The notes beneath the pieces are model-generated. The model ran no database searches. It was not told the origin of the DNA and saw nothing but the letters and a program-made list of their open reading frames with translations. The position numbers and the translations under genes are program-made. This document shows, in pieces, positions 20,276 through 64,000 of a stretch of 64,000 bases of DNA (position 1 is the stretch's first letter; every line of letters begins with the position of its first letter). Origin of the DNA: Nemertoderma westbladi (taxonomy: Eukaryota; Animalia; Xenacoelomorpha); assembly GCA_032718475.1 (NCBI GenBank), contig JAUCBJ010009152.1, positions 8,542 through 72,541 on the forward strand, given 5' to 3'.

Positions 20276-20467
20276 CTAGTTCTAACTGCTGTATGATGGA
20301 CTCCATATAGGAGTACTGATTCTAACTACTGTATGATAGACTCCATATAGGAGTACTGGTTCTAACTGCTGTATGATGGACTCCATATAGGAGTACTGAT
20401 TCTAACTGCTGTATGATAGACTCCATATAGGAGTACTGGCTCTAACTTCTGATTGATGGACTCCATA
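20276..20467. repeat. ~4.7 monomers of the 40-bp satellite; ends in the left TSD (TCCATA, 20462-20467)
   Basis: Same 40-bp monomer as the main array. Confidence 0.97.
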
Positions 20468-20806
20468 AGTAGTAGGGTCTTGGGCGGCTCTGTGACAGTT
20501 AGACCTCACTGACACCCATTGGGTGTCATATGACACCCAATTATCACCCCATGGGTGTCATTGGGTGTCATTGGCGCCAGACTGTCTGGGTGACACCTCC
20601 CAATTAGGCTAATTAGACCCTAATTGACAGGTGTCATCAATTAATTAGTACAATTAAACCCTAACAGGTATCATTTAGGGTTTAATTGATTATCCTAATT
20701 AATCAGACTGATTAGCGCCCTGACACACAATGGGTCATCAGTGATGTCTAACTGTCACAGAGCCGGCTCAAGAGGGTGTCATAAGTGACACCGCAGCTCT
20801 TTTATT
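20468..20806 (+). repeat. Left terminal inverted repeat (339-bp core)
   Basis: Reverse complement of 29148-29486 with one visible mismatch (CAGGTATCA vs CAGGTGTCA). Degenerate similarity continues inward. Confidence 0.95.
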
Positions 20807-21233
20807 CATTAATACTTATTTATATTTAATTTTAATTAATTATTTGCATTTTATTTTATATTCGTATTTATTCATTTGTACTTTATTTTATATTAATTAT
20901 TCATTTATACTTTATGGGTATACAGCTCCCTTACTGGTAACTAATTACTCTTATCTATATCCAGACAGCTTTTTCGTTGACCTTTGACCTTTGACCCCTC
21001 AATTAGCTTTAACCAAGCAACAGCATATTAATGATAGTTGTATCCAAGCGCCCCTGCCCCCCACCCCGTGACAGCTCTGATTACTAATTACTCTTACATA
21101 TATCCAACCGCCTGCAGTTCCATAGTCTGCCGCTAGAGGGCGTATTATCTGAAAATTAACATCTTCTCTAACTTTGTTATTTTTCAATTTAACTATTTAT
21201 ATATCCAGGCAGCCCCTATCATAACAACCAGGG

Positions 21234-21285
21234 ACCGGCAGGACACATGGAAACGATTTTATTACTATGAAATACATTGAAATAT
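21234..21285 (-). pseudogene. Short duplicated fragment of the TBP-like gene 3' end
   Basis: CCGGCAGGACACATGGAAACGATTTTATTACTATGAAATACATTGAAATAT closely matches ~22343-22393 and encodes YFNVFHSNKIVSMCPAG. Confidence 0.8.
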
Positions 21286-21774
21286 ATTCTCACATTAACT
21301 CCCAAGGTTGCATACTATCACTATAGCTGGGAGAGTCAAAGCTAGAGTGTATGCTAGAGTTATCCAAGAGCTAGGAAAAAGAATAATGCTCTTCTAGGGT
21401 CCAAACTCACATCCATCCAATTAGAGAACTAAGCAAATGACCAGCTTGAAGGCCTTAGACCCTTAATCTGAGGCATCGAGCAGCCAATGAGAGAGCAGAT
21501 GTGAGTACAGTGGTAAAGCCCACCCATGGTGAGATAACGTCACACTAACTCTCAAGGATAGTTATACTCACCGTTCAAATATCCCTCGCAAACCAGTTTC
21601 CCCCCAACATCTAAAGTAATCCACTTCAATGTAAAATATATAATGCAATATAACTCGAATATTTCTGTTTTTATAATATAAATAATAATTGTAACATAAA
21701 TTTATAATTTAACACAAATATAAGGTGAAAATTCACTTTAACATAGAGTAACTAAACTAAACATAAAATAGGAT

Positions 21775-22230
21775 AAAAACAGATGGTCATACTGTAGGCT
21801 CAATCCCTACTCGTGTCCGTTTTATGAAAAATATAAAAAGTAAACATAGAATAACTAGAGTACCTAAACTAAACACAAAATAGGAAAAACAGAAGGTCAC
21901 GGGCTCAATCCCTACTCGTATCCCGTTTTATGGAAAATAAACAGGAGGTCATAGGTTCAATCCCTACTCGCGACCATTATAAATCCAACACGAAATAAGT
22001 TAAACCAGGGTTCGAATCCTAATCATGAAAATATAAAAAGTAAACATAGAATAACTAGAGTAACTAAACTAGACATAAATTAGGAAAAACAGAAGGTCAG
22101 GGGTTCAATCCCTACTCGCGACCATTATAAAACCAACACAAAATAAGTTAAACCAGGGTTCGAGTCCTACTAATGCAATTATAAAAAGTAGGTAACACGG
22201 ATGGTCACGGATTCAAACCCTACTCACGGA
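21775..22230 (+). repeat. Cluster of seven tRNA T-arm/B-box-like motifs in degenerate direct repeats
   Basis: GTAGGCTCAATCCCTAC, GGGCTCAATCCC, ATAGGTTCAATCCCTACTCGCGACCA, GGGTTCGAATCCT, GGGGTTCAATCCCTACTCGCGACCA, GGGTTCGAGTCCT and GGATTCAAACCC, compared with the B-box consensus GGTTCRANTCC. Confidence 0.7.
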
Positions 22231-22293
22231 AAAATAAAAACCAACACAAAATAAATAATATAGTAAACTTTCATGTATACCATAGTAAATAAT

Positions 22294-22809
22294 CTAATTT
22301 AATAATAAAGTTTGTAAAATAGATAATGATTCGGGGAATTCACCGGCTGGACACATGGAAACGATTTTATTACTATGAAATACACTGAAATATGCACGTC
22401 CTATATATATTCTAATCGCGCAAAATAATTCGGGGGTATAGCTAATAAATATTGCTTTATTATTAATTGTATGATGTCCACATTTTTTCATTAATAATTT
22501 AAAATTAACACTTGGAAAAATAATAGTTTGTGTTTCGGTATTAAGTTTCAAATTTTGTAATTGCATACCAATAGTTTGTTTTAAATAAAGCAATTCACTA
22601 GCTAAATTATTGCAAAGGCCTACAATTGTTACTGCGCCGCTGGGAAATAGCATTATAGTTGAATCGTCACCTTTGTAGATAAACATGTTTGGTTTTAAGC
22701 AACTTTGACCTGTAGTTTGCTGTGAAATTTTCTCTAGTTCAAATTTGGCAATGTTTTTTCCGGTAAACTGTTTATTGGTTATTTCTATTTTGTAGCTCAA
22801 TTTCTTATT
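22294..22809 (-). CDS. Divergent TATA-binding protein (TBP)-like protein; no ATG at the 5' end, probably a spliced 3' exon
   Basis: ~170 aa with two TBP-like repeats. STIMLFPSGAVTIVG resembles TBP TTALIFSSGKMVCTG, and SYTPELFCAIRIY...FSVFHSNKIV resembles SYEPELFPGLIYR...LLIFVSGKVV. The ORF-track start is a TTG, preceded by the acceptor-like TTTAATTTTTCTAG (AG at 22811-22810). Confidence 0.72.
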   Translation of the reverse strand, partial: NKKLSYKIEITNKQFTGKNIAKFELEKISQQTTGQSCLKPNMFIYKGDDSTIMLFPSGAVTIVGLCNNLASELLYLKQTIGMQLQNLKLNTETQTIIFPSVNFKLLMKKCGHHTINNKAIFISYTPELFCAIRIYIGRAYFSVFHSNKIVSMCPAGEFPESLSILQTLLLN

Positions 22810-22823
22810 CTAGAAAAATTAAA

Positions 22824-25800
22824 TTAAATCCTAGTAGGGGGGATTACTACTCGTTTCGCCGGTCTAACAAGCTTAGTGCTATAGTGCCCGTATGGTTTGC
22901 TGCTATATTTACTACTCCAATATGATTTCGTATCCCAGAGCGTTAGTGCCTTCTTATAGACATGACCAGTAAAAATTTGATGCTTACTAGAAGTGAAGGT
23001 AGAGTTATAGCGGAAGAGCATTGCCTCGTTTACAAAACAGTCTGCATAATCCTCGTGTGTTAGTTGCTTAGCGACAACCGATCTAGATACACCTTTGGCG
23101 GTTTTCTTGATTGGGGCATCATAGGATTGAAAACTGTAGACCTTTGGTTTAAGGAAAACCCACTGTTTATACTGCAAACCGCAGCTCTCATCTTTTATGA
23201 AGCCGAGAGCCGCTTTGTGTTTAATGGTATAGAGTGGATGTGTTGTACTGTAGTTGGAAGTATCTAGGAAACCACCCTCAAACATTGCCCGTAGAAAGGT
23301 TAGCTGTGGTGTATTAGTTACGCTTAGCATTAGAGAATCCGTGTCACCGGCTAGACAGCGAATCTGGCAACCCAGTTTTTGTTCTAGAGGCTTCAGTTTG
23401 TTGTAAAATAGGTCGTACATCTGTAGCTTAGATAGATCTAGTATAGTGCAACCGATGAACACGCCCTGATTTAGGCAAACAGCCTCTTTAGTGAAAGTAT
23501 GACCACTCAAGTTGGGGGTAAATACAACAAACGATTCGTGATTGGGCTTGGCTAAGAGCAAATCGCATTGTTCGTCGCTATTGCATAACCTGAAAGAAAC
23601 GCGGTCTCTAACCTTTTGGAGGCATTTCCCATACAAGGCATTGTTCATCAACTTATAAAATAGGACCTCGAATGGGTTATTTGCCGACTGTCTTTTATTG
23701 GTATTAAAACTAATGTAGTCCTTGAAAATATATTTTTGTGAGAAAGAGTAGACCCTATGTACTTGTGTAAGTTTAAGACCGAGCTTCAAATAGAGTTGAA
23801 GTAGCTTAATATGGATACCGTATTCAACCTTATTAAACTGATGTAGTAGTAGCTTAGTACAGGTATCGTTGTATGGTCTACAGGTGGCCGTATCGGTGAG
23901 ATTGTAATGCTCCCAAAGATCTTCCATGTATTCGCTAAGAAAGGATTTAGGGACTGACATCTTCTCCGCTCCTAGAGGCAGATCGGCGGTCAAATCATGA
24001 ATTTCTTTCGGGTAATGTAGATCAACTATGCAATAATAACCAGTATCCCCACTCGCGTCTACTGTAGCTAGGTCTATGGGGGTAGTTACGAGTTTAATAT
24101 TAGCGTAGGGAAGTTTCTGGCTCAGGGCGCAGCCGTAAAGGTTATTCGCATCGATGGGAATTAGATATTTCTCGGGGAGACTGGAGTCATAGTCGGGTTT
24201 ATCGGGAATATTTGCGTCTACGGAATGTGTATTCAAGAATACTAGACCACCCCTAATATTTGTTTCAAAGTCCGAGTAGATGGAAGCGTCTGATAGTAAT
24301 TGAATTTCTGATTGCGTGAATTTCAGCGCCGCGTCGTAAGTTAATCCAGGGGCAGTGAAGTACATTACGGGCTCGAGTCCATAATTAGTAAGACAGAGGG
24401 ATCGGAACTGCTCGAAAGTATCAGCCAATAGGGTAACATCTAGAACCAAATAGCCAATCATATAGTCAAAGATTGTTGCGCAGTTTAATTCATCCCAAGT
24501 AGTAAGCGCGCGCTGATAGTTTTCTGCGCTACATTGTTCCAATTTGAGATCATTATAGAAGCTTTCTAATGGGGGGAGTGTAGTTTCGTGTAGGTTTGAA
24601 ATATTTTGAATGTAGGAATATGGGAATACACCCTTGTTTTTTATTGTGTTATCGCTAATGTTGGGATAGAGTTGGGTCATTTGAGCTAGTGTATGGGGTA
24701 TGGCTGTTGCTAGGTTACTGTTATTTTTAGTGAGATAACTACTAAGATTATCTAGGCTGGCAGTCATAAACTGATAGGAATCTAGAAAATTAATGGAGAT
24801 ACTTTCTTTAGCGTTGGCTGTTGGTGTACTCGGATCGATTGGGAAGCTAACTTTAAGGTGAATATAAGTTTCGGTGTTTTTTGGTATTACGGTCATTTTC
24901 CAGTGTGTTCTAGAACTATCGGTCATTCCTTCTTTTAGTAGTAAATGCATATCGAATTTCCTCAGGTTATGAAATATAATATAAAAATTATTCCGTTTTA
25001 GGGAAAGTTTCCTGTTGCAGCTGACGCAAGCAGCCCCCCGATACTCCCCGCTATAATGATCGTGATCGCGGACTTTGGTGCTGAGATTGTCATTGAGGTT
25101 TAAATTATGAGAATCGGGGGTTAAATTACAGTTGCAGACGTAGCATTGTGTAGCGTTATTAAAGTCAGTTTGTTGGCTAGTAGTGAGTTGCATGGGGGCG
25201 TGCGTGTTTGTACTAGAAATGGACCAATCGTATAACTCCCTACAATGACTTTCCATAGCGGTTAGAAAGTCGCGCATTACGTGGTTACTGCCATCGTCGC
25301 GGAAAATTTGAACATCTGTTTTAGGAGGGTTAATTAATTTCTGATTTGGTACTGTATAAAAGGCTGCCGCGCTAGCTATATGTTTCTGTGGGAGTTTAAT
25401 ATTGTTTGTAGGTTCTAGAATAGTTTCAATGTCGGCGTATATACAGAAAGGTGGGGATAGAGTCTTATCGTACCTATCAAATTTAACCAAGAGATTTTCG
25501 GGCATATACTCGAGTTGGCGTTTACCCGTATAGCACCGCTCTCGATGTTCTTCCAATGATTTGTCAGTGTAAAAGGCTCTGAGACAGCGTTCGCAGTGCG
25601 TCTTGTTGCCTTTAGAAGTAGCTTTAGTATTTATTAATCTATCTATGTTAGTAATAGCTACGTAGTGGGCGGGGTTTTTGCTTGTGGCTTCGATAAATAA
25701 TAAGTTTAGTACAGTTTTACCGGAACAGTGCGCGCTATCTGGTTGACTTAGGATGGAGAGTTCTTCCGTATTACTCCAATAAAGAAGGTTTATGCAGTAT

Positions 25801-26879
25801 ATAGGGTTGGCTTTCAGAAACTGGGGAATACCAGTTACTCTGTCCACCGGAAAACTTAAATTCGAAAAATCAAACATGTTTAGGAAAGGAGTATAGGTTG
25901 AAATTCTTTTGATATTATTTTGTTTTCTATCAATTTTCTTATAATTTGCGGCGGCCAAAACTGCGTATTTAAAGCATTCCCCCAGCGGGCAGTCTACGCT
26001 TACGGTACATTTTTTATTTAATAATAATTTAGAATTATTGAACCCTTGACCCTTTAAATAGGGGTTGCGTTGGGACCGCACAATCTCAATAGTTATTCGC
26101 TCGATGGCTATTATGCGCCAACCCGAGCCGAGACAGAGAAACACGCTTAACAGTTGATCGATACGATTGACGGCGCCAGAAAACCAGTTATTAAAGTCGC
26201 TATTATTCAGAATTTGATTATTGTTACCGCTAGATTTAAAACAGAATGATTCAATTTGAAATCCCTCGCTGGTTTCACGCTCCATTACGATGTTGATTGT
26301 AAGCCAGACTCTTAAAAAAGTTCCCATGGCACTACGTAAATGGCTACTAACGTGTTCGTGAATGTGTGGAAAATTTTCATTTAATGTTAATTCTGCGTCG
26401 AGTCTTGTTTCTGTGAGGTCGTTGTTATAGGTAAACAGTCGTCCGTGTGCGCTTCCGTTAGAGGGTGGTTGAAATGGATTGTTTGGGGAAATAGAATCTC
26501 GCGAAGTTGAAGGTTCGTTATTGGAGCCGCCGCCGCCGACTTGTTCTGGAGTAGAGTTGATGGGGGATGAGTGTGAGGTAGTCGGAGTTTTGCGTTTCCG
26601 CGAAAAAAGTCGAGTATAGCATTCATGCTCAGTAAAGGAAGATAGGGTGAGCGAATCCCCGCAGCGGCAATCGGCTGGCTCGTTTACGTAACTAAATCCT
26701 GTTCCCCCCTGAGGACACGAAACAAGATGGCCAACCAGCGTCTTCTTTTCCGAAGACCAAGTCGGACAGCAGTCGCATCTATATTGCGCGAAATGAGTTT
26801 TAATATGACGAGATAAATTATCACTCCGCGTCTCTTTGTTGCAGATGGGGCAGCTAACTTTATTGCTAGACATAGGCAT
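22824..26879 (-). CDS. polB: Protein-primed family B DNA polymerase (Polinton/adintovirus type), 1351 aa, intact
   Basis: ExoI YADIE, ExoII FHNLRKFD, KGVFPY, ExoIII YLVLDV, IRGG, motif A DANNLYG, motif B KLMNNALYGK, motif C GDTDS and KVY. It also has an endonuclease VII-like HNH insert (CYVC...RDHDH...GAACVSCN), a TP-like region ending GSGW, vOTU-like CFKYAV...HYV and N-terminal zinc fingers. Confidence 0.96.
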   Translation of the reverse strand: MPMSSNKVSCPICNKETRSDNLSRHIKTHFAQYRCDCCPTWSSEKKTLVGHLVSCPQGGTGFSYVNEPADCRCGDSLTLSSFTEHECYTRLFSRKRKTPTTSHSSPINSTPEQVGGGGSNNEPSTSRDSISPNNPFQPPSNGSAHGRLFTYNNDLTETRLDAELTLNENFPHIHEHVSSHLRSAMGTFLRVWLTINIVMERETSEGFQIESFCFKSSGNNNQILNNSDFNNWFSGAVNRIDQLLSVFLCLGSGWRIIAIERITIEIVRSQRNPYLKGQGFNNSKLLLNKKCTVSVDCPLGECFKYAVLAAANYKKIDRKQNNIKRISTYTPFLNMFDFSNLSFPVDRVTGIPQFLKANPIYCINLLYWSNTEELSILSQPDSAHCSGKTVLNLLFIEATSKNPAHYVAITNIDRLINTKATSKGNKTHCERCLRAFYTDKSLEEHRERCYTGKRQLEYMPENLLVKFDRYDKTLSPPFCIYADIETILEPTNNIKLPQKHIASAAAFYTVPNQKLINPPKTDVQIFRDDGSNHVMRDFLTAMESHCRELYDWSISSTNTHAPMQLTTSQQTDFNNATQCYVCNCNLTPDSHNLNLNDNLSTKVRDHDHYSGEYRGAACVSCNRKLSLKRNNFYIIFHNLRKFDMHLLLKEGMTDSSRTHWKMTVIPKNTETYIHLKVSFPIDPSTPTANAKESISINFLDSYQFMTASLDNLSSYLTKNNSNLATAIPHTLAQMTQLYPNISDNTIKNKGVFPYSYIQNISNLHETTLPPLESFYNDLKLEQCSAENYQRALTTWDELNCATIFDYMIGYLVLDVTLLADTFEQFRSLCLTNYGLEPVMYFTAPGLTYDAALKFTQSEIQLLSDASIYSDFETNIRGGLVFLNTHSVDANIPDKPDYDSSLPEKYLIPIDANNLYGCALSQKLPYANIKLVTTPIDLATVDASGDTGYYCIVDLHYPKEIHDLTADLPLGAEKMSVPKSFLSEYMEDLWEHYNLTDTATCRPYNDTCTKLLLHQFNKVEYGIHIKLLQLYLKLGLKLTQVHRVYSFSQKYIFKDYISFNTNKRQSANNPFEVLFYKLMNNALYGKCLQKVRDRVSFRLCNSDEQCDLLLAKPNHESFVVFTPNLSGHTFTKEAVCLNQGVFIGCTILDLSKLQMYDLFYNKLKPLEQKLGCQIRCLAGDTDSLMLSVTNTPQLTFLRAMFEGGFLDTSNYSTTHPLYTIKHKAALGFIKDESCGLQYKQWVFLKPKVYSFQSYDAPIKKTAKGVSRSVVAKQLTHEDYADCFVNEAMLFRYNSTFTSSKHQIFTGHVYKKALTLWDTKSYWSSKYSSKPYGHYSTKLVRPAKRVVIPPTRI

Positions 26880-27400
26880 CTTGAATCTAGAAAAATAAGT
26901 TGATTATTCATAAAAAAATAAAAAATACTGTATACTTGCTAAAAATAAGGTAAAACAGTAGGTATTAATCGGTTACTAGGCAACAATACTGTGTTTGTAC
27001 AGTTAGGCCTATTGCTGTATTGTAGCATTCAGGCAGTGAAACATAAAGCAGACAGTCAGCAGTGTCTAGTGTAGTAGTGTTAGTGTACCAGCGGTCAGAT
27101 AGTGGCGATAACCAAGACACAATAGCGATGGCAGTTATTATTCGTGGAAAGAGGGTCTATAAACAGCAGTCAGTCAGTGCAGTAGTGCTAGTGAAATAGT
27201 CTGCCAGAAGTCAGACGTACCGGTAGCGTTAACCAATAGAAATCAACGATAGGCTTAGCTAATCGCTGTGTGAGAACTCAGTTAGTCAGTAGGATATATA
27301 ATGAAAACTGCAGTATTCAGTGTTGTTCAGTAGGGTCTATATCGCTACTATGATGGCATTAGGCTAACTCGAATGATCCGGTAGCGCTAGTTGGGTAGAC

Positions 27401-28212
27401 AAGCAGATAGACAGATGTAGGCCTATTGATCGAATGCTTCGATCACGGTTTAGGCTATCGGTACCACCACAGTCTGACAGTAATTAATAATGAGCCTACT
27501 GCAATACTGTTGTACCGGTAGACATTAAATGTAAATTGTTTGCTAGCGGCATCGATAGTACAGTCAGATGGTGGAAGGGAAGGCAGATTTTACTTACGGT
27601 GTTAGTAAATATTCACGGAAAGAAGAAGTTTGGAAGTTTGTTGGCGATGAGGAAGTTGGTTGACGTGGACGACGAGAGAGTTTATTAACCGATAGAACGG
27701 AATGGTATCGGAAATTAGAAATAATGGAATATTACGCGACGAATACGCGGAAAGTTTGTTGTCGACAATGAGCGTTAACGCGGCGAAATTACACTAGAAA
27801 AATAAGTTGATTATTTGTAAAAAGATAAAAAATACAGTAAGCAGATAGGCGGATGTAAGCCTATTGATCGAATGCTTCGATCACGGTTTAGGCTATCGGT
27901 ACCACCGCAGTCTGACAGTAATTAATAATGAGCTTACTGCAATACTGTTGTACCGGTAGACATTAAATGTAAATTGTTTGCTAGCGGCATCGATAGTACC
28001 GTCAGATGGTGTAAGGCAGATTTTACTTACGGTGTTAGTAAATATTCACGGAAAGAAGAAGTTTGGAAGTTTGTTGGCGATGAGGAAGTTGGTTGACGTG
28101 GACGACGAGAGAGTTTATTTACCGATAGAAGGGAATGGTATCGGAAGAATATTACGCGACGGATACACGGAAAGTTTGTTGTCGACGATGAATGATAACG
28201 CGGCGAAATGAC
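27401..28212 (-). repeat. ~390-bp direct repeat pair (27401-27792 and 27839-28212) containing putative non-coding leader exons
   Basis: Near-identical copies. On the minus strand each has a donor ACC|GTAAGT (28030 and 27597). The acceptor AACTTATTTTTCTAG occurs at 27794 and again at 26887, 7 nt before the polB ATG. Confidence 0.75.
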
Positions 28213-28259
28213 AATAATACAACTCTACAAGTGGGTTGTTGATCGATGATAACAAATAA

Positions 28260-28460
28260 ATATTCTTAAATAAATAATATTAAATTCGAAAACAAAATAA
28301 TGGTAAATGATGTTAATCGTAACTTGCAATTGAAATAATGACCTAATATATTAGTGGGGATGTATTAAATAGCAATTCGGTTAGTAGGGGAGGCCCTTGT
28401 CTCTTAAATGAGCCAATCAGAGCGCAGCAGCAGAAATGACGCCCGCTGATTGGCTGTTCG
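28260..28460 (-). promoter_or_regulatory. Putative Pol II promoter of the element (paired CCAAT boxes, AT-rich TATA-like region)
   Basis: AGCCAATCAG (28411-28420) and its exact inverse CTGATTGGCT (28446-28455) flank TGACG. TATTTAAG lies on the minus strand at ~28265-28272, just upstream of the putative leader exon. Confidence 0.5.
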
Positions 28461-29147
28461 CGCAAAAGCGGTTACCAGGGCAACTTCTCGTGTTGATTCT
28501 ATATTAGAAAACTCTTGTAAGCATCTTGACTAATTATGTTGAGTTGGTTGTATAACAGAAGCAGGTCTGGTGCAAAGGAAAGGGATTAGTAGAGAGGAAT
28601 GCGTGATTAGTGGCGCTTCATTGTTATGATAGGGGCTGCCTGGATATAGGAAAGGGACAAAGCGACGCCGGCTATAGTGGGAACAATGGAGGGCCGCTTG
28701 AGCATTAGCCTTGGGCGATATACGGATTTGTTGTAGTCAAGGCCGCCTGGCGCCATTGAATAATGAAGACAAAGGGGCTGCTAACAGACGGGACCGCTCA
28801 TTTATATTTGCCTTGGGGGTATACGTGTAGATTCACTGCCTGTTGTATCTAGTTAATGAATAATGAGGACAGAGGAGGGGCCCCCCGCCGATGAACGCAG
28901 TTGATAGTTGCCAGTAGGGAGCCGTATACCATAGCCATTATAAAGTTAAAAATAGATATTATGTCATAGTGATCTCGTTGGTAATATAAAAACTAATTAA
29001 TCTAAAAATAGAAATCAATGTATAAAGTTTATACAATTAATTAATTTAAAATAAAGTACAAATGAATAATTAATTTAAAATTAAATACAAATAAAATAAA
29101 ATACAAATAATTAATTAAAATTAAATATAAATAAATAGGTATTAATA

Positions 29148-29486
29148 AATAAAAGAGCTGCGGTGTCACTTATGACACCCTCTTGAGCCGGCTCTGTGAC
29201 AGTTAGACATCACTGATGACCCATTGTGTGTCAGGGCGCTAATCAGTCTGATTAATTAGGATAATCAATTAAACCCTAAATGACACCTGTTAGGGTTTAA
29301 TTGTACTAATTAATTGATGACACCTGTCAATTAGGGTCTAATTAGCCTAATTGGGAGGTGTCACCCAGACAGTCTGGCGCCAATGACACCCAATGACACC
29401 CATGGGGTGATAATTGGGTGTCATATGACACCCAATGGGTGTCAGTGAGGTCTAACTGTCACAGAGCCGCCCAAGACCCTACTACT
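29148..29486 (-). repeat. Right terminal inverted repeat (339-bp core)
   Basis: Reverse complement of 20468-20806; ends CCCTACTACT, followed by the TSD TCCATA. Confidence 0.95.
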
Positions 29487-32400
29487 TCCATATAGGAGTA
29501 CTGGTTCTAACTGATGTATGATGGACTCCATATAGGAGTACTGGTTCTAACTTCTGTATGATGGACTCCATATAGGAGTACTGGTTCTAACTTCTGATTG
29601 ATGGACTCCATATAGGAGTACTGGTTCTAACTGCTGTATGATGGACTCCATATAGGAGTACTGGTTCTAACTTCTGTATTGATGGAATCCATATAGGAGT
29701 ACTGGTTCTAACTTCTGATTGATGGACTCCATAAAGGAGTACTGGTTCTAACTTCTGATTGATGGACACAATATAGGAGTACTGGTCCTATATAGGTGTA
29801 CTGATTCTAACTGCTGTATGGTGGACTCCATATAGAAGTACTGGATCTGACTGCTGTATGATGGACTCCATATAGGAGTACTGGTTCTATCTGCTGTATG
29901 ATGGACTCCATATAGGAAGGAGTACTGGTTCTAACTGCTGTATGATGGACTCCATATAGGAGTACTGGTTCTAACTTATGACTGATGGACTGACTCCATA
30001 TAGGAGTACTGGTTCTAACTTCTGATTGATGGACTCCATATAGGAGTACTGGTTCTAACTGATGTATGATGGACTCCATATAGGAGTACTGGTTCTAACT
30101 GCTGTATGATGGAATCCATATAGGAATACTGGTTCCTGGTTCTATCTGCTGATTGATGCTCCATATAGGAGTACTGGTTCTAACTGCTGTATGATGGACT
30201 CCATATAGGAGTACTGGTTCTAACAGCTGTATGATGGACTCCATATAGGAGTACTGGTTCTAACTGCTGTATGATGGACTCCATATAGGAGTACTGGTTC
30301 TAACTGCTGTATGATGGACTCCATATTGGAGTACTGGTTCTAACTTCTGATTCTGATTGATGGACTCCATATAGGAGTACTGGTTCTAACTGCTGTATGA
30401 TGGACTCCATATAGGAGTACTGGTTCTAACTGCTGTATGATGGACTCCATATAGGAGTACTGGTTCTAACTGCTGATTGATGGACTCCATATAGGAGTAC
30501 TGGTTCTAACTGCTGATTGATGGACTCCATAAAGGAGTACTGGTTCTAACTGCTGATTGAGGAGTACTGGTTCTAATTACTGTATGATGGACTCCATAAA
30601 GGAGTACTGGTTCTAACTTCTGATTGATAGACTCCATATAGGAGTACTGGTTCTCACTGCTGATTGATGAACTCCATATAGGAGTACTGATTCTAACTGC
30701 TGTATGATGGACTCCATATAGGAGTACTGGTTCTAACTGCTGTATGATGGACTCCATATAGGAGTACTGGTTCTAACTGCTGCATGATGGACTCCATATA
30801 GAAGTACTGGTTCTAACTGCTGTATGATGGACTCCATATAGGAGTACTGATTCTAACTGCTGTATGATGGACTCCATATATGAGTTCTAACTGCTGTATG
30901 ATGGACTCCATATAGGAGTACTGGTTCTAACTTTTGTATGATGGACTCCATGTAGGAGTACTGATTCTAACTGCTGTATGATGGACTCCATATAGGAGTA
31001 CTGGTTCTAACTTCTGATTGATGGACTCCATATAGGAGTACTGGTTCTAACTTCTGATTGATGGACTCCATATAGGAGTACTGGTTCTAACTGCTGTATG
31101 ATGGACTCCATATAGGAGTACTGGTTCTAACTGCTGTATGATGGACTCCATATAGGAGTACTGGTTCTAACTGCTGTATGATGGAATCCATATAGGAGTA
31201 CTGGTTCCTGGTTCTATCTTCTGATTGATGCTCCATATAGGAGTACTGGTTCTAACTGCTGTATGATGGACTCCATATAGGAGTACTGGTTCTAACTGCT
31301 GTATGATGGACTCCATATTGGAGTACTGGTTCTAACTTCTGATTCTAATTGATGGACTCCATATAGGAGTACTGGTTCTAACTGCTGTATGATGGACTCC
31401 ATATAGGAGTACTGGTTCTAACTGCTGTATGATGGACTCCATATAGGAGTGGACTCCATATAGGAGTACTGGTTCTAACTTCTGATTGATGGACTCCATA
31501 AAGGAGTACTGGTTCTAACTGCTGATTGAGGAGTACTGGTTCTAACTACTGTATGATAGACTCCATAAAGGAGTACTGGTTCTAACTTCTGATTGATGGA
31601 GTACTGGTTCTAACTGCTGATTGATGAACTCCATATAGGAGTACTGATTCTAACTGCTGTATGATGGACTCCATATAGGAGTACTGGTTCTAACTGCTGT
31701 ATGATGGACTCCATATAGGAGTACTGATTCTAACTGCTGTTTGATGGACTCCATATAGGAGTACTGGTTCTAACTGCTGTATGATGGACTCCATATAGGA
31801 GTACTGGTTCTAACTGCTGTATGATGGACTCCATATAGGAGTACTGGTTCTAACTTCTGATTGATGGACTCCATAAAGGAGTACTAGTTCTAACTTCTGA
31901 TTGATGGACTCCATATAGGAGTACTGGTTCTAACTGCTGTATGATGGACTCCATATAGGAGTACTGGTTCTAACTTCTGATTGATGGAATCCATATAGGA
32001 GTACTGGTTCTAACTTATGATTGATGGATTCCATAAAGGAGTACTGGTTCTAACTTCTGATTGATGGACTCCATATAGGAGTACTGGTCCTATATAGGTG
32101 TACTGATTCTAACTGCTGTATGATGGTCTCCATATAGAAGTACTGGTTCTGACTGCTGTATGATGGACTCCATATTGGAGTACTGGTTCTATCTGCTGTA
32201 TGATGGACTCCATATAGGAAGGAGTACTGGTTCTAACTGCTGTATGATGGACTCCATATAGGAGTACTGGTTCTAACTTATGATTGATGGACTGACTCCA
32301 TATAGGAGTACTGGTTCTAACTTCTGATTGATAGACTCCATATAGGAGTACTGGTTCTAACTGCTGTATGATGGACTCCATATAGGAGTACTGGTTCTAA

Positions 32401-59600: not shown

Positions 59601-59695
59601 TGACTCCATATAGGAGTACTGGTTCTAACTTCTGATTGATGGACTCCATTAAGGAGTACTGGTTCTAACTTCTGATTGATTGACTCCATATAGGA
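56601..59695. repeat. 40-bp satellite block
   Basis: Monomers return to CCATATAGGAGTACTGG. Confidence 0.97.
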
Positions 59696-61023
59696 TTATC
59701 CACTTCCCAACACGTTCTTCAGGACTATCGGCTTTGAAGCGCCCCTTTGCACAACTTTTCCGACCAGATACCTCATTTACAGTTTACCAGGTAAGTTTTG
59801 ATTGTTGCTGTATGTGAGCAGTTGTAATTGCTTCAGTTTTATCCTGTATGTACTTTTCCTGGCTAATGTTGTAGGACAATTTAAGATCGTCCTTAGCTTT
59901 CTCGACCTTGTTAATGTTTTCGGTTTTTGGTTGTTCGGTTTTAACTTTGTAGTCGCACATACTGTTTTCGTTTGGGTTTCTGGGGGATATGCCTCTTAGC
60001 TGATTCCTTGTGGGCTGTTACTATATTCTGGTATATTGAATATATGGTAGAAGTTCAAAACCGCTTTGAAGCACTTATCCACCAATTCAATATACCTGTG
60101 ACGGGATCCGAGCGGTGTGGTTTATTTACGCGTCCCCGCCGCCAGTGATTGTTATCGTTCCGAAATTGTTAATGGATATATATAAATGAACTGAGTAAAC
60201 ACATAGCACAGTTGATGGTGAACTGAGTAAATGGTAATATAATTGGTGATGGTGGCGGCGACGGTTATAAAATGTCACCGTACTGCCCTGACTGAGTGAC
60301 TGAGTAAACTAATTGTGTTTCGGAATGTCCTTTATAAGTCCAGTCAGTTCTTCATAAAACTTGACTGCTTGTTCTGGCTCTGAGGCATTGGGTGGACTGT
60401 AGCAACATATAACTGTTGCCTTGGGATTCCCATCAAATGTTGTGATCATAACCCTGGAATTTATAGATTCGATGTTGTTTAGAGTCTTAAGTGCAAATAG
60501 GCTTGGCAGAATTCCTACTCCACCAATTGATGCATTGGCCGAGTTTCTTACTGCTGAGCTTGTTACTAACGTCCATCTATTTCCAATGTCATTGTACTTC
60601 ATGGCAGTTGGTTGATTACCTTCCGCCGACCTTGTCAGCATGTCTAGCCGTTGGTTGATTACCTTCCGCCTATCCTCCATGGCCTACAGCCCTGCTGCCA
60701 ACTGTAGGGGTCCATTTGTTACACCCTGAACCAAGTGTGCCCCCTGGGTTAGGTTACTGGTAGAGGAGTATCCAGTATAGACAGGGGGGGCGTGTATCAT
60801 CTCTAATGCAGATGCGTATCAAGCCTTTGCCTTCAATGGTGCCCTAGGCGCTATAGCCCTCAATGACTTATTTAGTTGACAGGGTTAAACCAACCCACTC
60901 TTGATCAACTAAATAATGAATAGGCTATGCTTATCGGGCCTGCCCTACTGGGCTGGCAGCTACAGGTAGTACCACATTACTGCCATAGTGGTAGCAGGAT
61001 CTGGGGACCTGACCTGACCTGAT
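59696..61023 (-). mobile_element. Decayed RTE/RTEX-like non-LTR retrotransposon fragment (5' region, APE endonuclease remnant, post-endonuclease linker; no RT)
   Basis: ORF 60309-60680 has GGVGIL...ESINSRVMITTFDGNPKATVICCYSPPN...FYEEL...IPKHN, typical of the RTE APE domain. My translation of ~59700-59920 (minus) gives ...QEKYIQDKTEAITTAHIQQQSKLTW*TVNEVSGRKS...KADSPEERVGKW, a typical linker with an in-frame stop. Confidence 0.75.
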
Positions 61024-61640
61024 ATGTATGATGGACTCCATATAGGAGTACTGGTTCCAACTTCTGATTGATGGACTCCATATAGGAGTACTGGTTCTAA
61101 CTGCTGTATGGTGGACTCCATATAGGAAGGAGTACTGGTTCTAACTGCTGTATGATGGACTCCATATAGGAGTACAGGTTCTAACTTCTGATTGATGGAC
61201 TCCATATAGGAGTACTGGTTCTAACTTCTGATTGATGGACTCCATATAGGAGTATTGGTTCTAACTGCTGTATGATGGACTCCATATAGGAGTACTGGTT
61301 CTAACTGCTGTATGAAGGACTCCATATAGTACTGGTTCTATCTTCTGTATGAAGGACTCCATATAGTACTGGTTCTATCTTCTGTATGATGGACTCCATA
61401 TAGTACTGGTTCTAACTGCTGTATGATGGACTCCATATAGTACTGGTTCTATCTTCTGTATGAAGGACTCTATATAGTACTGGTTCTAACTGCTGTATGA
61501 TGGACTTCATATAGTACTGGTTCTATCTTCTGTATGAAGGACTCCATATAGTACTGGTTCTATCTTCTGTATGATGGACTCCATATAGTACTGGTTCTAT
61601 CTTCTGTATGAAGGACTCCATATAGTACTGGTTCTATCTT
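61024..61640. repeat. Satellite (40-bp monomers, switching to 37-bp at ~61320)
   Basis: Tandem monomers. Confidence 0.96.
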
Positions 61641-62489
61641 TTTTTTTTTTTTTTACTCAAAAGCCTCCATATATTATAATATTAACAAACAATAATTCGA
61701 ATATAAAAACGCACCAAAACAAGTACAAATATAACCCACCACCAGCTGATTCAAACTGTTACCTAGCAACAATACAAACAATACAAATTGGTTCAGTACC
61801 CATCACCAGTCTGCCACTCTGCCACTGCCAGTACCCAACAAACCCGCCAGACCTCTAACTTCTAAGCCGTCCTGGGGTCCGAGTCCGCGTTTGCCCACAC
61901 AATGGACGCGTCCGCCACTGCTGCCCGCACCGGTCTTCTAGCAGCCGACCGAAACCCACGGAGGCACATCAGGGACGACCGGAGTAAGGCGAAGTTGATG
62001 CGTCGCCGCACCCACGCTACCGACTCCGGGTAGGGAACCCGTCGTTTCTCCGACAGCCTCAATGCCAGCCGCTTCACAAACTGCTTCGCAGCCGGCGCCA
62101 TGCCCCCGAAAGCGGAAAATATGAGGGGGGTGAAGGTTGAGTGCTCAACCTCACGGATCCGCTCCTCGTATCTCCGGATCTTCCTCGCCTCGTGATGGAG
62201 GTGGGCGGCATCCAGCGACATCGCTGCGTTGGTGTCCGCCAGCGGGTTGAACACCGACACGTCGATAAACATCTTCTGGAAGCGGTTGCCCCAGAATCTG
62301 CTTACCGACACGTCGAGTCTCGCCTGCTGGTCCGTCGAGGTGGACCGGAGAGTGAAGGACTCCCCCGTCAGCGGCTGGAGCATCGGCTCGACAGCCACGT
62401 TGTGGGCCACCTCAGTCAGGGAGTCGGCGACGAAATCGCGGATCTTGTTGTGTCTGATTGAGGGGAACCCCCCAGTGGGACACGACAGA
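61641..62489 (-). mobile_element. 5'-truncated CRE-clade non-LTR retrotransposon with poly(A) tail and 12-14-bp TSD
   Basis: Poly-T on + at 61639-61654. ACTGGTTCTATCTT is duplicated at 61627-61640 and 62490-62503. The interior is GC-rich and coding. Confidence 0.88.
61862..62488 (-). pseudogene. C-terminal restriction-like (PD-(D/E)xK) endonuclease domain of a CRE-type ORF, 5'-truncated but uninterrupted
   Basis: LSCPTGG...RHNKIRD...EP...RLDV...FWG...FIDVSVF...HEARKIRRY...FTPLIFSAFGGM...CLRG. The apparent N-terminus MESFIQKIEPV is translated satellite. Confidence 0.85.
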
Positions 62490-64000
62490 ACTGGTTCTAT
62501 CTTCTGTATGAAGGACTCCATATAGTACTGGTTCTATATTCTGTATGAAGGACTCCATATAGTACTGGTTCTATCTTCTGTATGAAGGACTCCATATAGT
62601 ACTGGTTCTATCTTCTGTATGAAGGACTCCATATAGTACTGGTTCTAACTGCTGTAAGATGGACTCCATAAGGACACCATATAGTACTGGTTCTAACTGC
62701 TGTATGATGGACTCCATATGGTACTGGTTCTATCTTCTGTATGAAGGACTCCATATAGTACTGGTTCTATCTTCTGTATGAAGGACTCCATATAGTACTG
62801 GTTCTAACTGCTGTATGATGGACTCCATATAGTACTGGTTCTAACTGCTGTATGATGGACTCCATATAGTGCTGGTTCTAACTGCTGTATGATGGACTCC
62901 ATATAGTACTGGTTCTAACTGCTGTATGATGGACTCCATATGGTACTGGTTCTAACTGCTGTATGATGGACTCCATATAGTACTGGTTCTAACTGTTGTA
63001 TGATGGACTCCATATGAGTACTGGTTCTAACTGCTGTATGATGGACTCCATATAGTACTGGTTCTAACTGCTGTATGATGGACTCCATATATGAGTACTG
63101 GTTCTAACTGCTGTATGATGACTGGACTCCATATAGTACTGGTTCTAACTGCTGATTTATGGACTCCGTATAGTACTGGTTCTAACTGCTGTGTGATGGA
63201 CTCCATATAGTACTGGTTCTAACTGCTGTATGATGGACTCCATATATTACTGGTTCTAACTGCTGTATGATGGACTCCATATGGTACTGGATCTATCTTC
63301 TATATGAAGGACTCCATATAGTACTGGTTCTAACTGCTGTATGAAGGACTCCATATAGTACTGGTTCTAACTGCTATATGATGGACTCCATATGGTACTG
63401 GTTCTATCTTCTGTATGAATGACTCCATATAGTACTGGTTCTATCTTCTGTATGAAGGACTCCATATAGTACTGGTTCTAACTGCTGTATGATGGACTCC
63501 ATATAGTACTGGTTCTAACTGCTGTATGATGGACTCCATATAGTACTGGTTGTAACTGCTGTGTGATGGACTCCATATAGTACTGGTTCTAACTGCTGTA
63601 TGATGGACTCCATATGGTACTGGTTCTATCTTCTGTATGAAGGACTCCATATAGTACTGGATCTAACTGCTGTATGATGGACTCCATATAGTACTGGTTC
63701 TAACTGCTGTATGATGGACTCCATATAGTACTGGTTCTAACTGCTGTATGATGGACTCCATATAGTACTGGTTCTATCTTCTATATGAAGGACTCCATAT
63801 AGTACTGTTTCTACTGCTGTATGATGGACTCCATATAGTACTAGTTCTATCTTCTGTATGAAGGACTCCATATAGTACTGGTTCTAACTGCTGTATGATG
63901 GACTCCATATAGTACTGGTTCTATCTTCTATATGAAGGACTCCATATAGTACTGGTTCTACTGCTGTATGATGGACTCCATATAGTACTAGTTCTATCTT
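62490..64000. repeat. 37-bp satellite subfamily block, runs off the window
   Basis: Tandem 37-bp monomers. Confidence 0.96.

What the first reader, a model, noticed from the sequence alone, without database searches (positions are those of the whole stretch)
21775..22230. Array of seven tRNA T-arm/B-box mimics next to the TBP-like gene
Seen: repeated GGTC..RGGTTCRANTCC-type motifs, several with T-arm geometry (TAGG-TTCAATC-CCTA, 7-nt loop). Two continue CTCGCGACCA, like a tRNA 3' acceptor strand ending in CCA. No A-box or 5' tRNA half is evident. Established: B-boxes recruit TFIIIC; isolated B-boxes can act as chromatin barriers; TBP is a TFIIIB subunit; adenoviruses, which also use pPolB, make Pol III VA RNAs. 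Inference: this is an insulator or Pol III small-RNA module that, with the TBP-like protein, could let the element be expressed inside satellite heterochromatin.
Basis: partly seen in the sequence, partly recalled or inferred. Interest (0 to 1): 0.72.

Follow-up and report, generated by a model that had tools for sequence, protein, structure and literature searches.

The report
B-box array inside a reduced Polinton
A stripped-down 9-kb virus-like transposon (Polinton) carries seven tandemly duplicated copies of a tRNA-gene promoter motif, which likely work as DNA docking sites for the host factor TFIIIC rather than as tRNA-mimicking RNA; a link to the neighbouring TBP-like gene is not supported.

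Summary
Observation partly confirmed. Seven same-strand B-box motifs lie at 21797-22220 (4 exact, 3 with one mismatch; shuffles about 0.1). They are duplicates of one tRNA 3'-half fragment in a variable-number tandem array, not seven independent features. The 'T-arm/CCA mimic' reading fails: stems have 2-5 pairs, and the CCA sits 11 nt after the loop against 13 in 15 of 15 reference tRNAs. There is no A box. The array lies 64 bp past the stop of a confirmed TBP-fold gene, in a 9,019-bp pPolB element with inverted ends and a 6-bp target duplication but no integrase or capsid. Across other copies in this organism, free motif positions vary (7 of 23) and fixed ones hardly do (1 of 51), yet fixed positions are no quieter than the spacers (12 of 390). 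Three related Polinton loci with the TBP-like gene show no array in the DNA held; one has two tRNA genes. Best reading (0.42): a TFIIIC-binding DNA platform acting as boundary or roadblock. Rivals: neutral repeat (0.27), Pol III small-RNA genes (0.25; TATA-to-B-box spacing is canonical in another unit form). Neither factor binding nor RNA could be tested.

The parts
20468..29486 (.). Reduced Polinton/Maverick-type element, 9,019 bp, inserted in a 40-bp satellite
   Evidence: Ends and 6-bp duplication TCCATA at 20462-20467 and 29487-29492; satellite on both sides
20468..20915 (.). Left terminal inverted repeat, with nested palindromes
   Evidence: 379 nt at 97% (I1); 460-column alignment at 94%
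29022..29486 (.). Right terminal inverted repeat
21740..22260 (+). Variable-number tandem array built from a tRNA 3'-half fragment plus A-rich spacers
   Evidence: Repeat offsets; joints in other copies
21797..21807 (+). B box 1 (one core mismatch, 5-bp stem, T4 run 14 nt after the loop)
21902..21912 (+). B box 2 (one core mismatch, variable-loop GTC kept, T4 run 15 nt after the loop)
21954..21964 (+). B box 3 (exact; full GTCnnnnGTTCRAnYC)
   Evidence: tRNA profile positions 37-70 of 77, E 1.8e-4
22009..22019 (+). B box 4 (exact; variable-loop part absent)
22102..22112 (+). B box 5 (exact; full GTCnnnnGTTCRAnYC)
   Evidence: E 4.8e-4
22157..22167 (+). B box 6 (exact; variable-loop part absent)
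22210..22220 (+). B box 7 (one core mismatch)
21832..22185 (+). Five TATAAA words interleaved with the B boxes (21832, 21978, 22032, 22126, 22180; a sixth at 21677)
   Evidence: 5 against 1.4 in shuffles, copies not independent
22294..22809 (-). TBP-fold open frame, 171 codons stop to stop. First ATG at 22686; homology starts about 35 codons upstream of it, right behind a pyrimidine-AG acceptor-like site (splicing inferred)
22824..26879 (-). Protein-primed B-family DNA polymerase, 1351 aa, open
   Evidence: PF03175 E 2.3e-18; 752 relatives, best 38% identical
21130..21143 (+). CTCF-like motif (consensus recalled, one mismatch), inside a piece of about 75 bp that also occurs in other sequence contexts
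   Evidence: 0.005 expected; loose ends at 21108-21183
28413..28453 (.). Two opposed CCAAT boxes; likely Pol II promoter region for the minus-strand genes (inferred)

Best explanation
The array is a tRNA 3'-half fragment, multiplied in tandem inside a reduced Polinton, that likely persists as a DNA landing pad for the host factor TFIIIC and would act as a chromatin boundary or transcription roadblock just past the pPolB-TBP genes. Shown: tRNA origin (variable loop plus T-loop), tandem amplification, unit-number differences among copies, no A box, loss of T-stem pairing, and position 64 bp past the TBP-like stop and a poly(A)-like ATTAAA at 22298. Inferred: selection on the B-box letters, TFIIIC binding, and the boundary or roadblock effect. 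The TBP-like protein is probably the clade's ordinary transcription factor, older than the array and not its partner (inferred).
For: (1) A profile of 29 bacterial tRNAs matches only model positions 37-70 of 77 in the array (E 1.8e-4, 4.8e-4, 0.024). The motif at 21954 matches a real tRNA-Asn at 25 of 29 positions; that tRNA was found by searching with the motif, so it is a selected match. (2) Against the published isolated-B-box consensus GTCnnnnGTTCRAnYC (PMC3159450, passages), two motifs are exact and two have one mismatch. The free n positions differ between motifs and break the T stem, while GTC and GTTCRA stay. (3) Among contigs of other copies (4 runs, 3 samples), 7 of 23 free positions vary against 1 of 51 fixed ones (Fisher P 0.0009; 0.007 without CpG sites). 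Both changes at the purine position stay purines. At two of the three places where this copy departs from the consensus, other copies match it. (4) Contigs laid on the array do not run on into unlike sequence (share 0 in 4 of 4 runs), so it belongs to the element rather than to a dispersed host SINE. (5) Precedent: five B boxes in 327 bp are needed for full boundary activity in S. pombe (PMC4502379); A-box-less ETC sites bind TFIIIC in yeast (PMC3395662) and cluster with CTCF in Drosophila (PMC4226948). (6) A CTCF-like motif lies 670 bp away (consensus recalled).
Against: (1) Fixed motif positions are no less variable than spacers: 1 of 51 against 12 of 390, P 1.0. The free-position excess may come partly from paralogous units mapping onto each other; the variants are not independent events. 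(2) Three of 7 motifs in this copy carry a core mismatch, and one array form in other copies has a broken central cytosine (table 5c). (3) No array in 100 related pPolB loci: at most 3 near-matches per 500 bp. The 12 loci of the same clade hold only about 17 kb outside long ORFs, so this is a weak negative. (4) One-sided position: no B box on the right arm, which holds the likely promoter and touches 30 kb of satellite. (5) The CTCF-like motif sits in a piece shared with other contexts and may be a passenger. (6) No binding data.
Confidence: 0.42

Rival explanations
1. Neutral variable-number tandem repeat: a tRNA or SINE fragment was captured once and spread by slippage and unequal recombination during pPolB replication. 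The B boxes are passengers.
For: All seven motifs descend from one fragment. The element has other tandem duplications (438 bp at 27401-28216; 52 bp at 21234/22342). Three of 7 motifs are degraded. Fixed positions are no quieter than spacers. No array was seen in relatives.
Against: The within-motif contrast of 7 of 23 against 1 of 51. The shorter motif class has lost the sequence just upstream yet keeps an exact B box in 2 of 2 copies. The 5' strand of the T stem drifts while the B box stays.
Confidence: 0.27
2. An array of Pol III small-RNA genes, the Polinton analogue of adenovirus VA RNAs. An upstream TATA box would place TFIIIB in place of a working A box, the B box would hold TFIIIC, and A-rich RNAs of about 75-80 nt or multimers would end at T4 runs.
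For: Joints in other copies (22148 to 21841 in X1 and X4, 22000 to 21841 in X3 and X4) imply a 108-bp head-to-tail unit. In it TATAAA lies 84 bp before the next B box, the spacing of a TATA-like box at -31/-24 and box B at +54 (PMC7279448, passages). T4 runs follow 2 of 7 motifs at a tRNA-terminator distance. All motifs face one way. The TBP-bearing relative L014 has two tRNA-type genes about 1 kb past its pPolB, one with a shortened anticodon arm but both boxes.
Against: No A box: the best relic lacks the conserved Gs, P 0.10-0.14. In this copy the TATA-to-B distances are mostly 70 or 30-31, and 84 occurs once, at a degraded motif. The 84-bp match was noticed after the fact; by my estimate it has about a 1 in 15 chance in a 108-bp unit. 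The predicted RNAs have no stable fold. Five of 7 motifs have no nearby terminator.
Confidence: 0.25
3. Minus-strand target sites: read on the mRNA strand, the motifs are complementary to tRNA 3' ends, so they would be primer-binding sites or targets of tRNA fragments in a long 3' UTR.
For: The minus strand is the coding strand, and a second AATAAA at 21258 could give a 1-kb 3' UTR across the array.
Against: The CCA is out of register. The element encodes no reverse transcriptase. An ATTAAA at 22298 would end the mRNA before the array.
Confidence: 0.04

Closest known systems
S. pombe IR boundary elements (COC sites) and ETC sites of yeast, fly and mammals
   Same: Clustered B boxes without A boxes. 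Five within 327 bp in IR-L (PMC4502379, passages) against seven in 424 bp here, next to repeat DNA.
   Different: Here the cluster is carried by a mobile virus-like element, lies on one arm only, arose by tandem duplication of a tRNA fragment, and TFIIIC binding is untested.
Isolated B boxes on the Dictyostelium extrachromosomal rDNA palindrome
   Same: The same extended consensus GTCnnnnGTTCRAnYC, with no tRNA gene, on a linear element (PMC3159450, passages).
   Different: There, 22 boxes are spread over 40 kb and show no further tRNA homology. Here they are tandem and keep the start of the acceptor strand.
Viral type 2 Pol III genes (adenovirus VA RNA, EBV EBER)
   Same: Box B in a pPolB or DNA-virus context, with TATA-like words upstream (PMC7279448, passages).
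   Different: Those have box A and make structured RNAs (structure recalled). Here there is no A box, no stable fold and no RNA evidence.
Polinton/Maverick (adintovirus) elements, and PLVs with tRNA genes
   Same: pPolB, long inverted ends, 6-bp target duplication (10.1101/2023.08.22.554363, passages). A TBP-like gene is labelled in a MELD-virus figure legend (PMC8502044, section 3.4). Whole tRNA genes occur in PLVs (558 Rfam hits in 8,300 genomes; PMC12220804, passages).
   Different: 9.0 kb against 13-25 kb; no integrase, capsid, ATPase or protease. It carries half-tRNA B-box repeats, not whole tRNA genes.

Membership tests
tRNA gene or tRNA mimic | Cloverleaf or 5' half with A box | tested here: not met
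   ARAGORN 0; Rfam none; profile matches only positions 37-70
tRNA gene or tRNA mimic | 5-bp T stem | tested here: not met
   1 of 7 motifs has 5 pairs, 1 has 4, the rest 2-3
tRNA gene or tRNA mimic | CCA 13 nt after the T-loop | tested here: not met
   11 nt in both motifs; 13 in 15 of 15 references
Type 2 Pol III gene (VA RNA, EBER type) | Box B GGTTCRAnYCY | tested here: met
   4 exact and 3 with one mismatch (consensus from PMC7279448)
Type 2 Pol III gene (VA RNA, EBER type) | Box A about 42 bp upstream of box B | tested here: not met
   Scores below the real-tRNA range; P 0.10 or more
Type 2 Pol III gene (VA RNA, EBER type) | TATA-like box at -31/-24 and a T4 terminator | tested here: inconclusive
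   84-bp spacing in the 108-bp unit implied by joints and once in this copy; T4 after 2 of 7 motifs
Type 2 Pol III gene (VA RNA, EBER type) | Pol III transcript | not testable with these tools
   No RNA holder listed
ETC/COC TFIIIC boundary site | B box without A box or tRNA gene | tested here: met
ETC/COC TFIIIC boundary site | TFIIIC occupancy without Pol III | not testable with these tools
   Needs ChIP or CUT&Tag
ETC/COC TFIIIC boundary site | Motif conserved relative to its surroundings | tested here: inconclusive
   1 of 51 fixed against 7 of 23 free, but 12 of 390 in spacers; no array in 100 related loci, most of them partial
ETC/COC TFIIIC boundary site | Placed between repressed chromatin and the protected promoter | tested here: not met
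   Left arm only; none on the promoter-side arm. The promoter position is inferred.
Dispersed tRNA-derived SINE | Copies in unrelated genomic contexts | tested here: not met
   Share running on into unlike sequence is 0 in 4 of 4 runs; no blastn hit to the window's flanks
Polinton/Maverick | pPolB | tested here: met
Polinton/Maverick | 100-1500 bp inverted ends and 5-8 bp target duplication | tested here: met
   definition
Polinton/Maverick | Integrase, capsid, ATPase and protease genes; 13-25 kb | tested here: not met
   Two long ORFs only; 961 ORFs from related loci give no tblastn hit in the arms; 9,019 bp. Filed as a reduced, non-autonomous derivative.
TBP family (PF00352) | Two-repeat TBP saddle fold | tested here: met
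   Profile of relatives without this protein, E 2.2e-11; model pLDDT 89.8; all listed PDB hits down to E 7e-5 are TBP chains, best TM 0.74. The Pfam score alone is under the cut-off.
TBP family (PF00352) | Binds TATA DNA and TFIIB or Brf1 | not testable with these tools
   The protein keeps 15 of 33 family-conserved columns; no eukaryotic partner was available for a complex job

The most novel reading that the evidence does not exclude
A Polinton lineage has built, from half a tRNA gene, a tunable tandem promoter in which its own TBP-fold protein reads the TATA boxes and host TFIIIC holds the B boxes. This gives A-box-independent Pol III small RNAs (a VA-RNA equivalent) and a self-insulating boundary, the first Pol III or TFIIIC device in a Polinton.
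Probability: 0.12. Interest if true: 0.8.

Novelty: new variant of a known kind. Interest (0 to 1): 0.48.

Why it matters
How Polintons regulate themselves and avoid silencing once integrated is nearly unstudied. A TFIIIC platform carried by the element would be a concrete, testable cis-device, and it would tie Polintons to the Pol III use of their adenovirus relatives. The element is multicopy in its host and the array varies in unit number, so occupancy or RNA could be compared among natural copies. I found no report of B-box arrays or TFIIIC sites in Polintons in six full-text searches (listings only, and only 25 of 239 papers were listed, none holding 'TFIIIC'). The library lacks most subscription papers, and supplements were not read. 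If neutral, this is an ordinary repeat inside a reduced Polinton.

Tried and rejected
No whole genome is held for the window, so copy number, full-length copies and preference for satellite could not be counted. No RNA holder listed. Single-sequence searches with the 130-aa ORF found no relative: 0 hits, 0 loci, 1 spurious repeat protein. The single-sequence fold failed (pLDDT 31.5). TBP-like alignments on viral contigs gave 0 loci and 1 locus, a giant-virus contig, set aside. Relaxed ARAGORN (-ps85) on the loci gave scattered calls in most of them; treated as noise. Rfam hits in the array were all far below their cut-offs. Phage blastn gave 5 short chance matches. A 19-mer scan of prokaryote genomes gave 3 hits, none in a tRNA. 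The 17-mer scan of viral contigs gave 7 hits: 1 in an ARAGORN tRNA, 2 between tRNA calls, 4 elsewhere. The rest of the L003 and L014 contigs could not be searched. Summed contig depth is higher over the array than over the TBP-like gene, but the tool says it is no copy number, so it is not used as evidence. A first test on B-box 11-mers alone was not significant: 0 of 39 core positions broken, 1.95 expected, P 0.14. Of the 5 listed variants in the TBP-like frame that I classified, 2 were synonymous and 3 not; 56 variant rows were not shown, so no selection claim is made. L003 capsid, protease and penton labels rest on recalled resemblance; Pfam and PHROGs gave no fitting family. No complex prediction was run. 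Earlier scan findings: nothing in 5 look-ups.

Full report
SETTING. The interval lies inside a 9,019-bp element (20468-29486) inserted in a 40-bp satellite. The element starts AGTAGT, ends with the complement, and is flanked by a 6-bp duplication. Its inverted ends are 379 nt at 97%. It has two long ORFs, both on the minus strand: a protein-primed polymerase of 1351 aa (PF03175, E 2.3e-18) and a TBP-like frame. No integrase, capsid, ATPase or protease was found: 961 ORFs from related loci give no tblastn hit in the non-coding arms. Against the definition in 10.1101/2023.08.22.554363 (passages) it is a reduced, non-autonomous Polinton derivative. Contigs from 4 runs (3 samples, one coded organism) cover 20950-23000 with many variants, so it is a multicopy family there. 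Named pPolB relatives are from animals; an animal host is an inference.

OBSERVATION. Seven + strand B-box-like 11-mers lie at 21797-22220. Four are exact and three carry one mismatch, far above shuffles. They are duplicates at offsets of 52, 105, 108, 148 and 200 bp. Five have a GGTC variable-loop word upstream (in the first, displaced by a 5-nt insert); two lack it. A loose end from another copy bridges the two classes, so one origin is likely. A profile of 29 bacterial tRNAs matches positions 37-70 of 77 and nothing of the 5' half in the array. A real tRNA-Asn in a viral contig agrees with the motif at 21954 at 25 of 29 positions; it was found with the motif itself, as 1 of 7 hits, so it fixes the register rather than the source. 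In that register the 'CCA' is positions 72-74, two short of a CCA tail: 11 nt after the loop against 13 in 15 of 15 references. T stems have 5, 3, 4, 3, 3, 3 and 2 pairs, and only the first motif folds better than shuffles. No A box scores in the range of real tRNAs, while the host's own tRNA-like repeat in the flank does. The motifs are therefore B boxes of tRNA origin, not T-arm or CCA mimics.

VARIATION AMONG COPIES. Laying the contigs on 21700-22300 listed 24 variant places. I scored them against the published consensus for isolated B boxes, GTCnnnnGTTCRAnYC (PMC3159450, passages). Seven of 23 free positions vary against 1 of 51 fixed positions (P 0.0009; 0.007 without CpG sites). Both changes at the purine position stay purines, and at two of the three mismatched places other copies match the consensus. 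The free positions are the 5' strand of the old T stem, and they drift while the 3' strand stays, so pairing is not what is kept. Against this: fixed positions are no quieter than the spacers (12 of 390, P 1.0); a first test on the 11-mers alone was not significant; units map onto each other, so the variants are not independent; and one array form has a broken central cytosine. The contigs do not run on into unlike sequence (share 0 in 4 of 4 runs), and they show ten joints that skip or repeat units. The array is a variable-number repeat of the element, not a dispersed SINE.

POL III GEOMETRY. Two joints imply a 108-bp head-to-tail unit in other copies, with TATAAA 84 bp before the next B box. 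That equals the spacing from a TATA-like box at -31 to box B at +54 in type 2 promoters (PMC7279448, passages). In this copy the distances are mostly 70 or 30-31, and 84 occurs once. T4 runs follow the first two motifs at 14 and 15 nt after the loop. TATAAA is enriched, 5 against 1.4, but the copies are not independent. This was noticed after the fact, and the A box is missing, so it supports a rival rather than the main reading.

THE TBP-LIKE GENE. Pfam alone is weak: E 0.0095 for 130 aa and 4.7e-4 for the 171-codon frame. Single-sequence searches failed. Two Polinton loci gave weak tblastn hits. Their three-sequence profile found 433 proteins, 118 of the 120 listed carrying PF00352. A profile without the window's protein hits it at 2.2e-11. 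The alignment-based model has pLDDT 89.8, and its PDB matches down to E 7e-5 are all TBP chains. The Atlas gave TBP for 30 of 30 hits, with a low recognition value. Homology begins about 35 codons before the first ATG, directly behind an acceptor-like site like the one before pPolB; a spliced start is inferred. The protein keeps only 15 of 33 family-conserved columns. TBP-like genes were found in 3 of 100 pPolB loci (L002, L003, L014). All three fall in the window's pPolB clade (support 1.0 in a tree of 51 sequences; 49 of 84 usable loci were left out by score). None of the 100 loci has a B-box cluster, although most are short and the 12 clade loci hold about 17 kb outside long ORFs. L014 has two tRNA-type genes about 1 kb past pPolB, the only tRNA hits among 7 loci scanned with Rfam. 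The TBP-like gene is thus a clade trait that occurs without a visible array. A 'TBP' label already appears for MELD viruses (PMC8502044, section 3.4 figure legend).

MECHANISM. The most likely history is one capture of a tRNA 3' half, then tandem expansion, then retention of the letters TFIIIC reads. TFIIIC binds B boxes without Pol III at ETC sites (PMC3395662, passages). Five B boxes in 327 bp are needed for full boundary activity in S. pombe, redundantly with Epe1 (PMC4502379, passages). TFIIIC clusters with CTCF in Drosophila (PMC4226948, passages), and a CTCF-like motif (recalled consensus) lies at 21130, though inside a piece shared with other contexts. The array starts 64 bp past the TBP-like stop and a poly(A)-like word at 22298. 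That fits a boundary or roadblock at the 3' end of the unit. It fits poorly with shielding the promoter: the right arm has the CCAAT boxes, touches 30 kb of satellite and has no B box. I put this reading at 0.42, a neutral repeat at 0.27, Pol III small-RNA genes at 0.25 and tRNA-fragment targets at 0.04. Binding and transcription are untested.

NOVELTY. Whole tRNA genes in PLVs are known (PMC12220804, passages). I saw no B-box array or TFIIIC site in a Polinton in the listings. Term look-ups for TBP, TATA and tRNA were blank in three papers, and for TATA and tRNA in a fourth. Subscription papers and supplements were not seen and could hold such a description. It is a new variant of a known kind: a known cis-device, in sequence at least, in a new carrier. 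Interest 0.48.

Noticed in passing
window 1-20279, minus strand, B boxes at 1455, 4470, 7484, 9037, 12701, 15715, 18729: The left flank is a tandem of units of about 3.0 kb with an 11.25-kb higher-order repeat. Each unit carries a tRNA-like sequence with both an A box and a B box that ARAGORN and Rfam miss. It also has CCA 11 nt after the loop. No blastn similarity to the element's array.
   Followed up: partly
window 22810, 26887, 27794 (minus strand): Both genes are preceded by near-identical pyrimidine-rich AG acceptor-like sites, and a third copy lies upstream. This suggests one promoter on the right arm with alternative splicing, which would also supply the start for the TBP-like frame (inferred).
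   Followed up: partly
window 21234-21285 and 22342-22393: A 52-nt piece of the TBP-like gene's 3' end, holding AATAAA on the minus strand, is duplicated next to the left inverted end. The array lies between the two copies.
   Followed up: no
window 21417-21720: CCAAT, CRE-like and TATA-like words upstream of the array resemble a rightward promoter, perhaps left from deleted genes.
   Followed up: no
L014 10000-10061 (-) and 10156-10227 (+): A TBP-bearing Polinton contig has two divergent tRNA-type genes about 1 kb past pPolB, one with a shortened anticodon arm. It is not known whether they are native or a host insertion.
   Followed up: partly
L002, L003, L014; P0122-P0241: A family of TBP-like proteins of about 170 aa (433 hits). 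The three Polinton loci that carry it fall in one pPolB clade with the window's enzyme (support 1.0). Most of the 433 have no known context, and some may be giant-virus or cellular TBPs.
   Followed up: partly
window 20478-20773 and its mirror at the right end: The inverted ends contain nested palindromes that could fold into branched hairpins.
   Followed up: no
window 27401-28216: A tandem duplication of about 435 bp in the right arm, without long ORFs.
   Followed up: no
window 59693-61020 and 61640-62490: Two insertions in the satellite that look like truncated non-LTR retrotransposon pieces, the second with a poly(A) tail (resemblance recalled; Pfam gave nothing).
   Followed up: no
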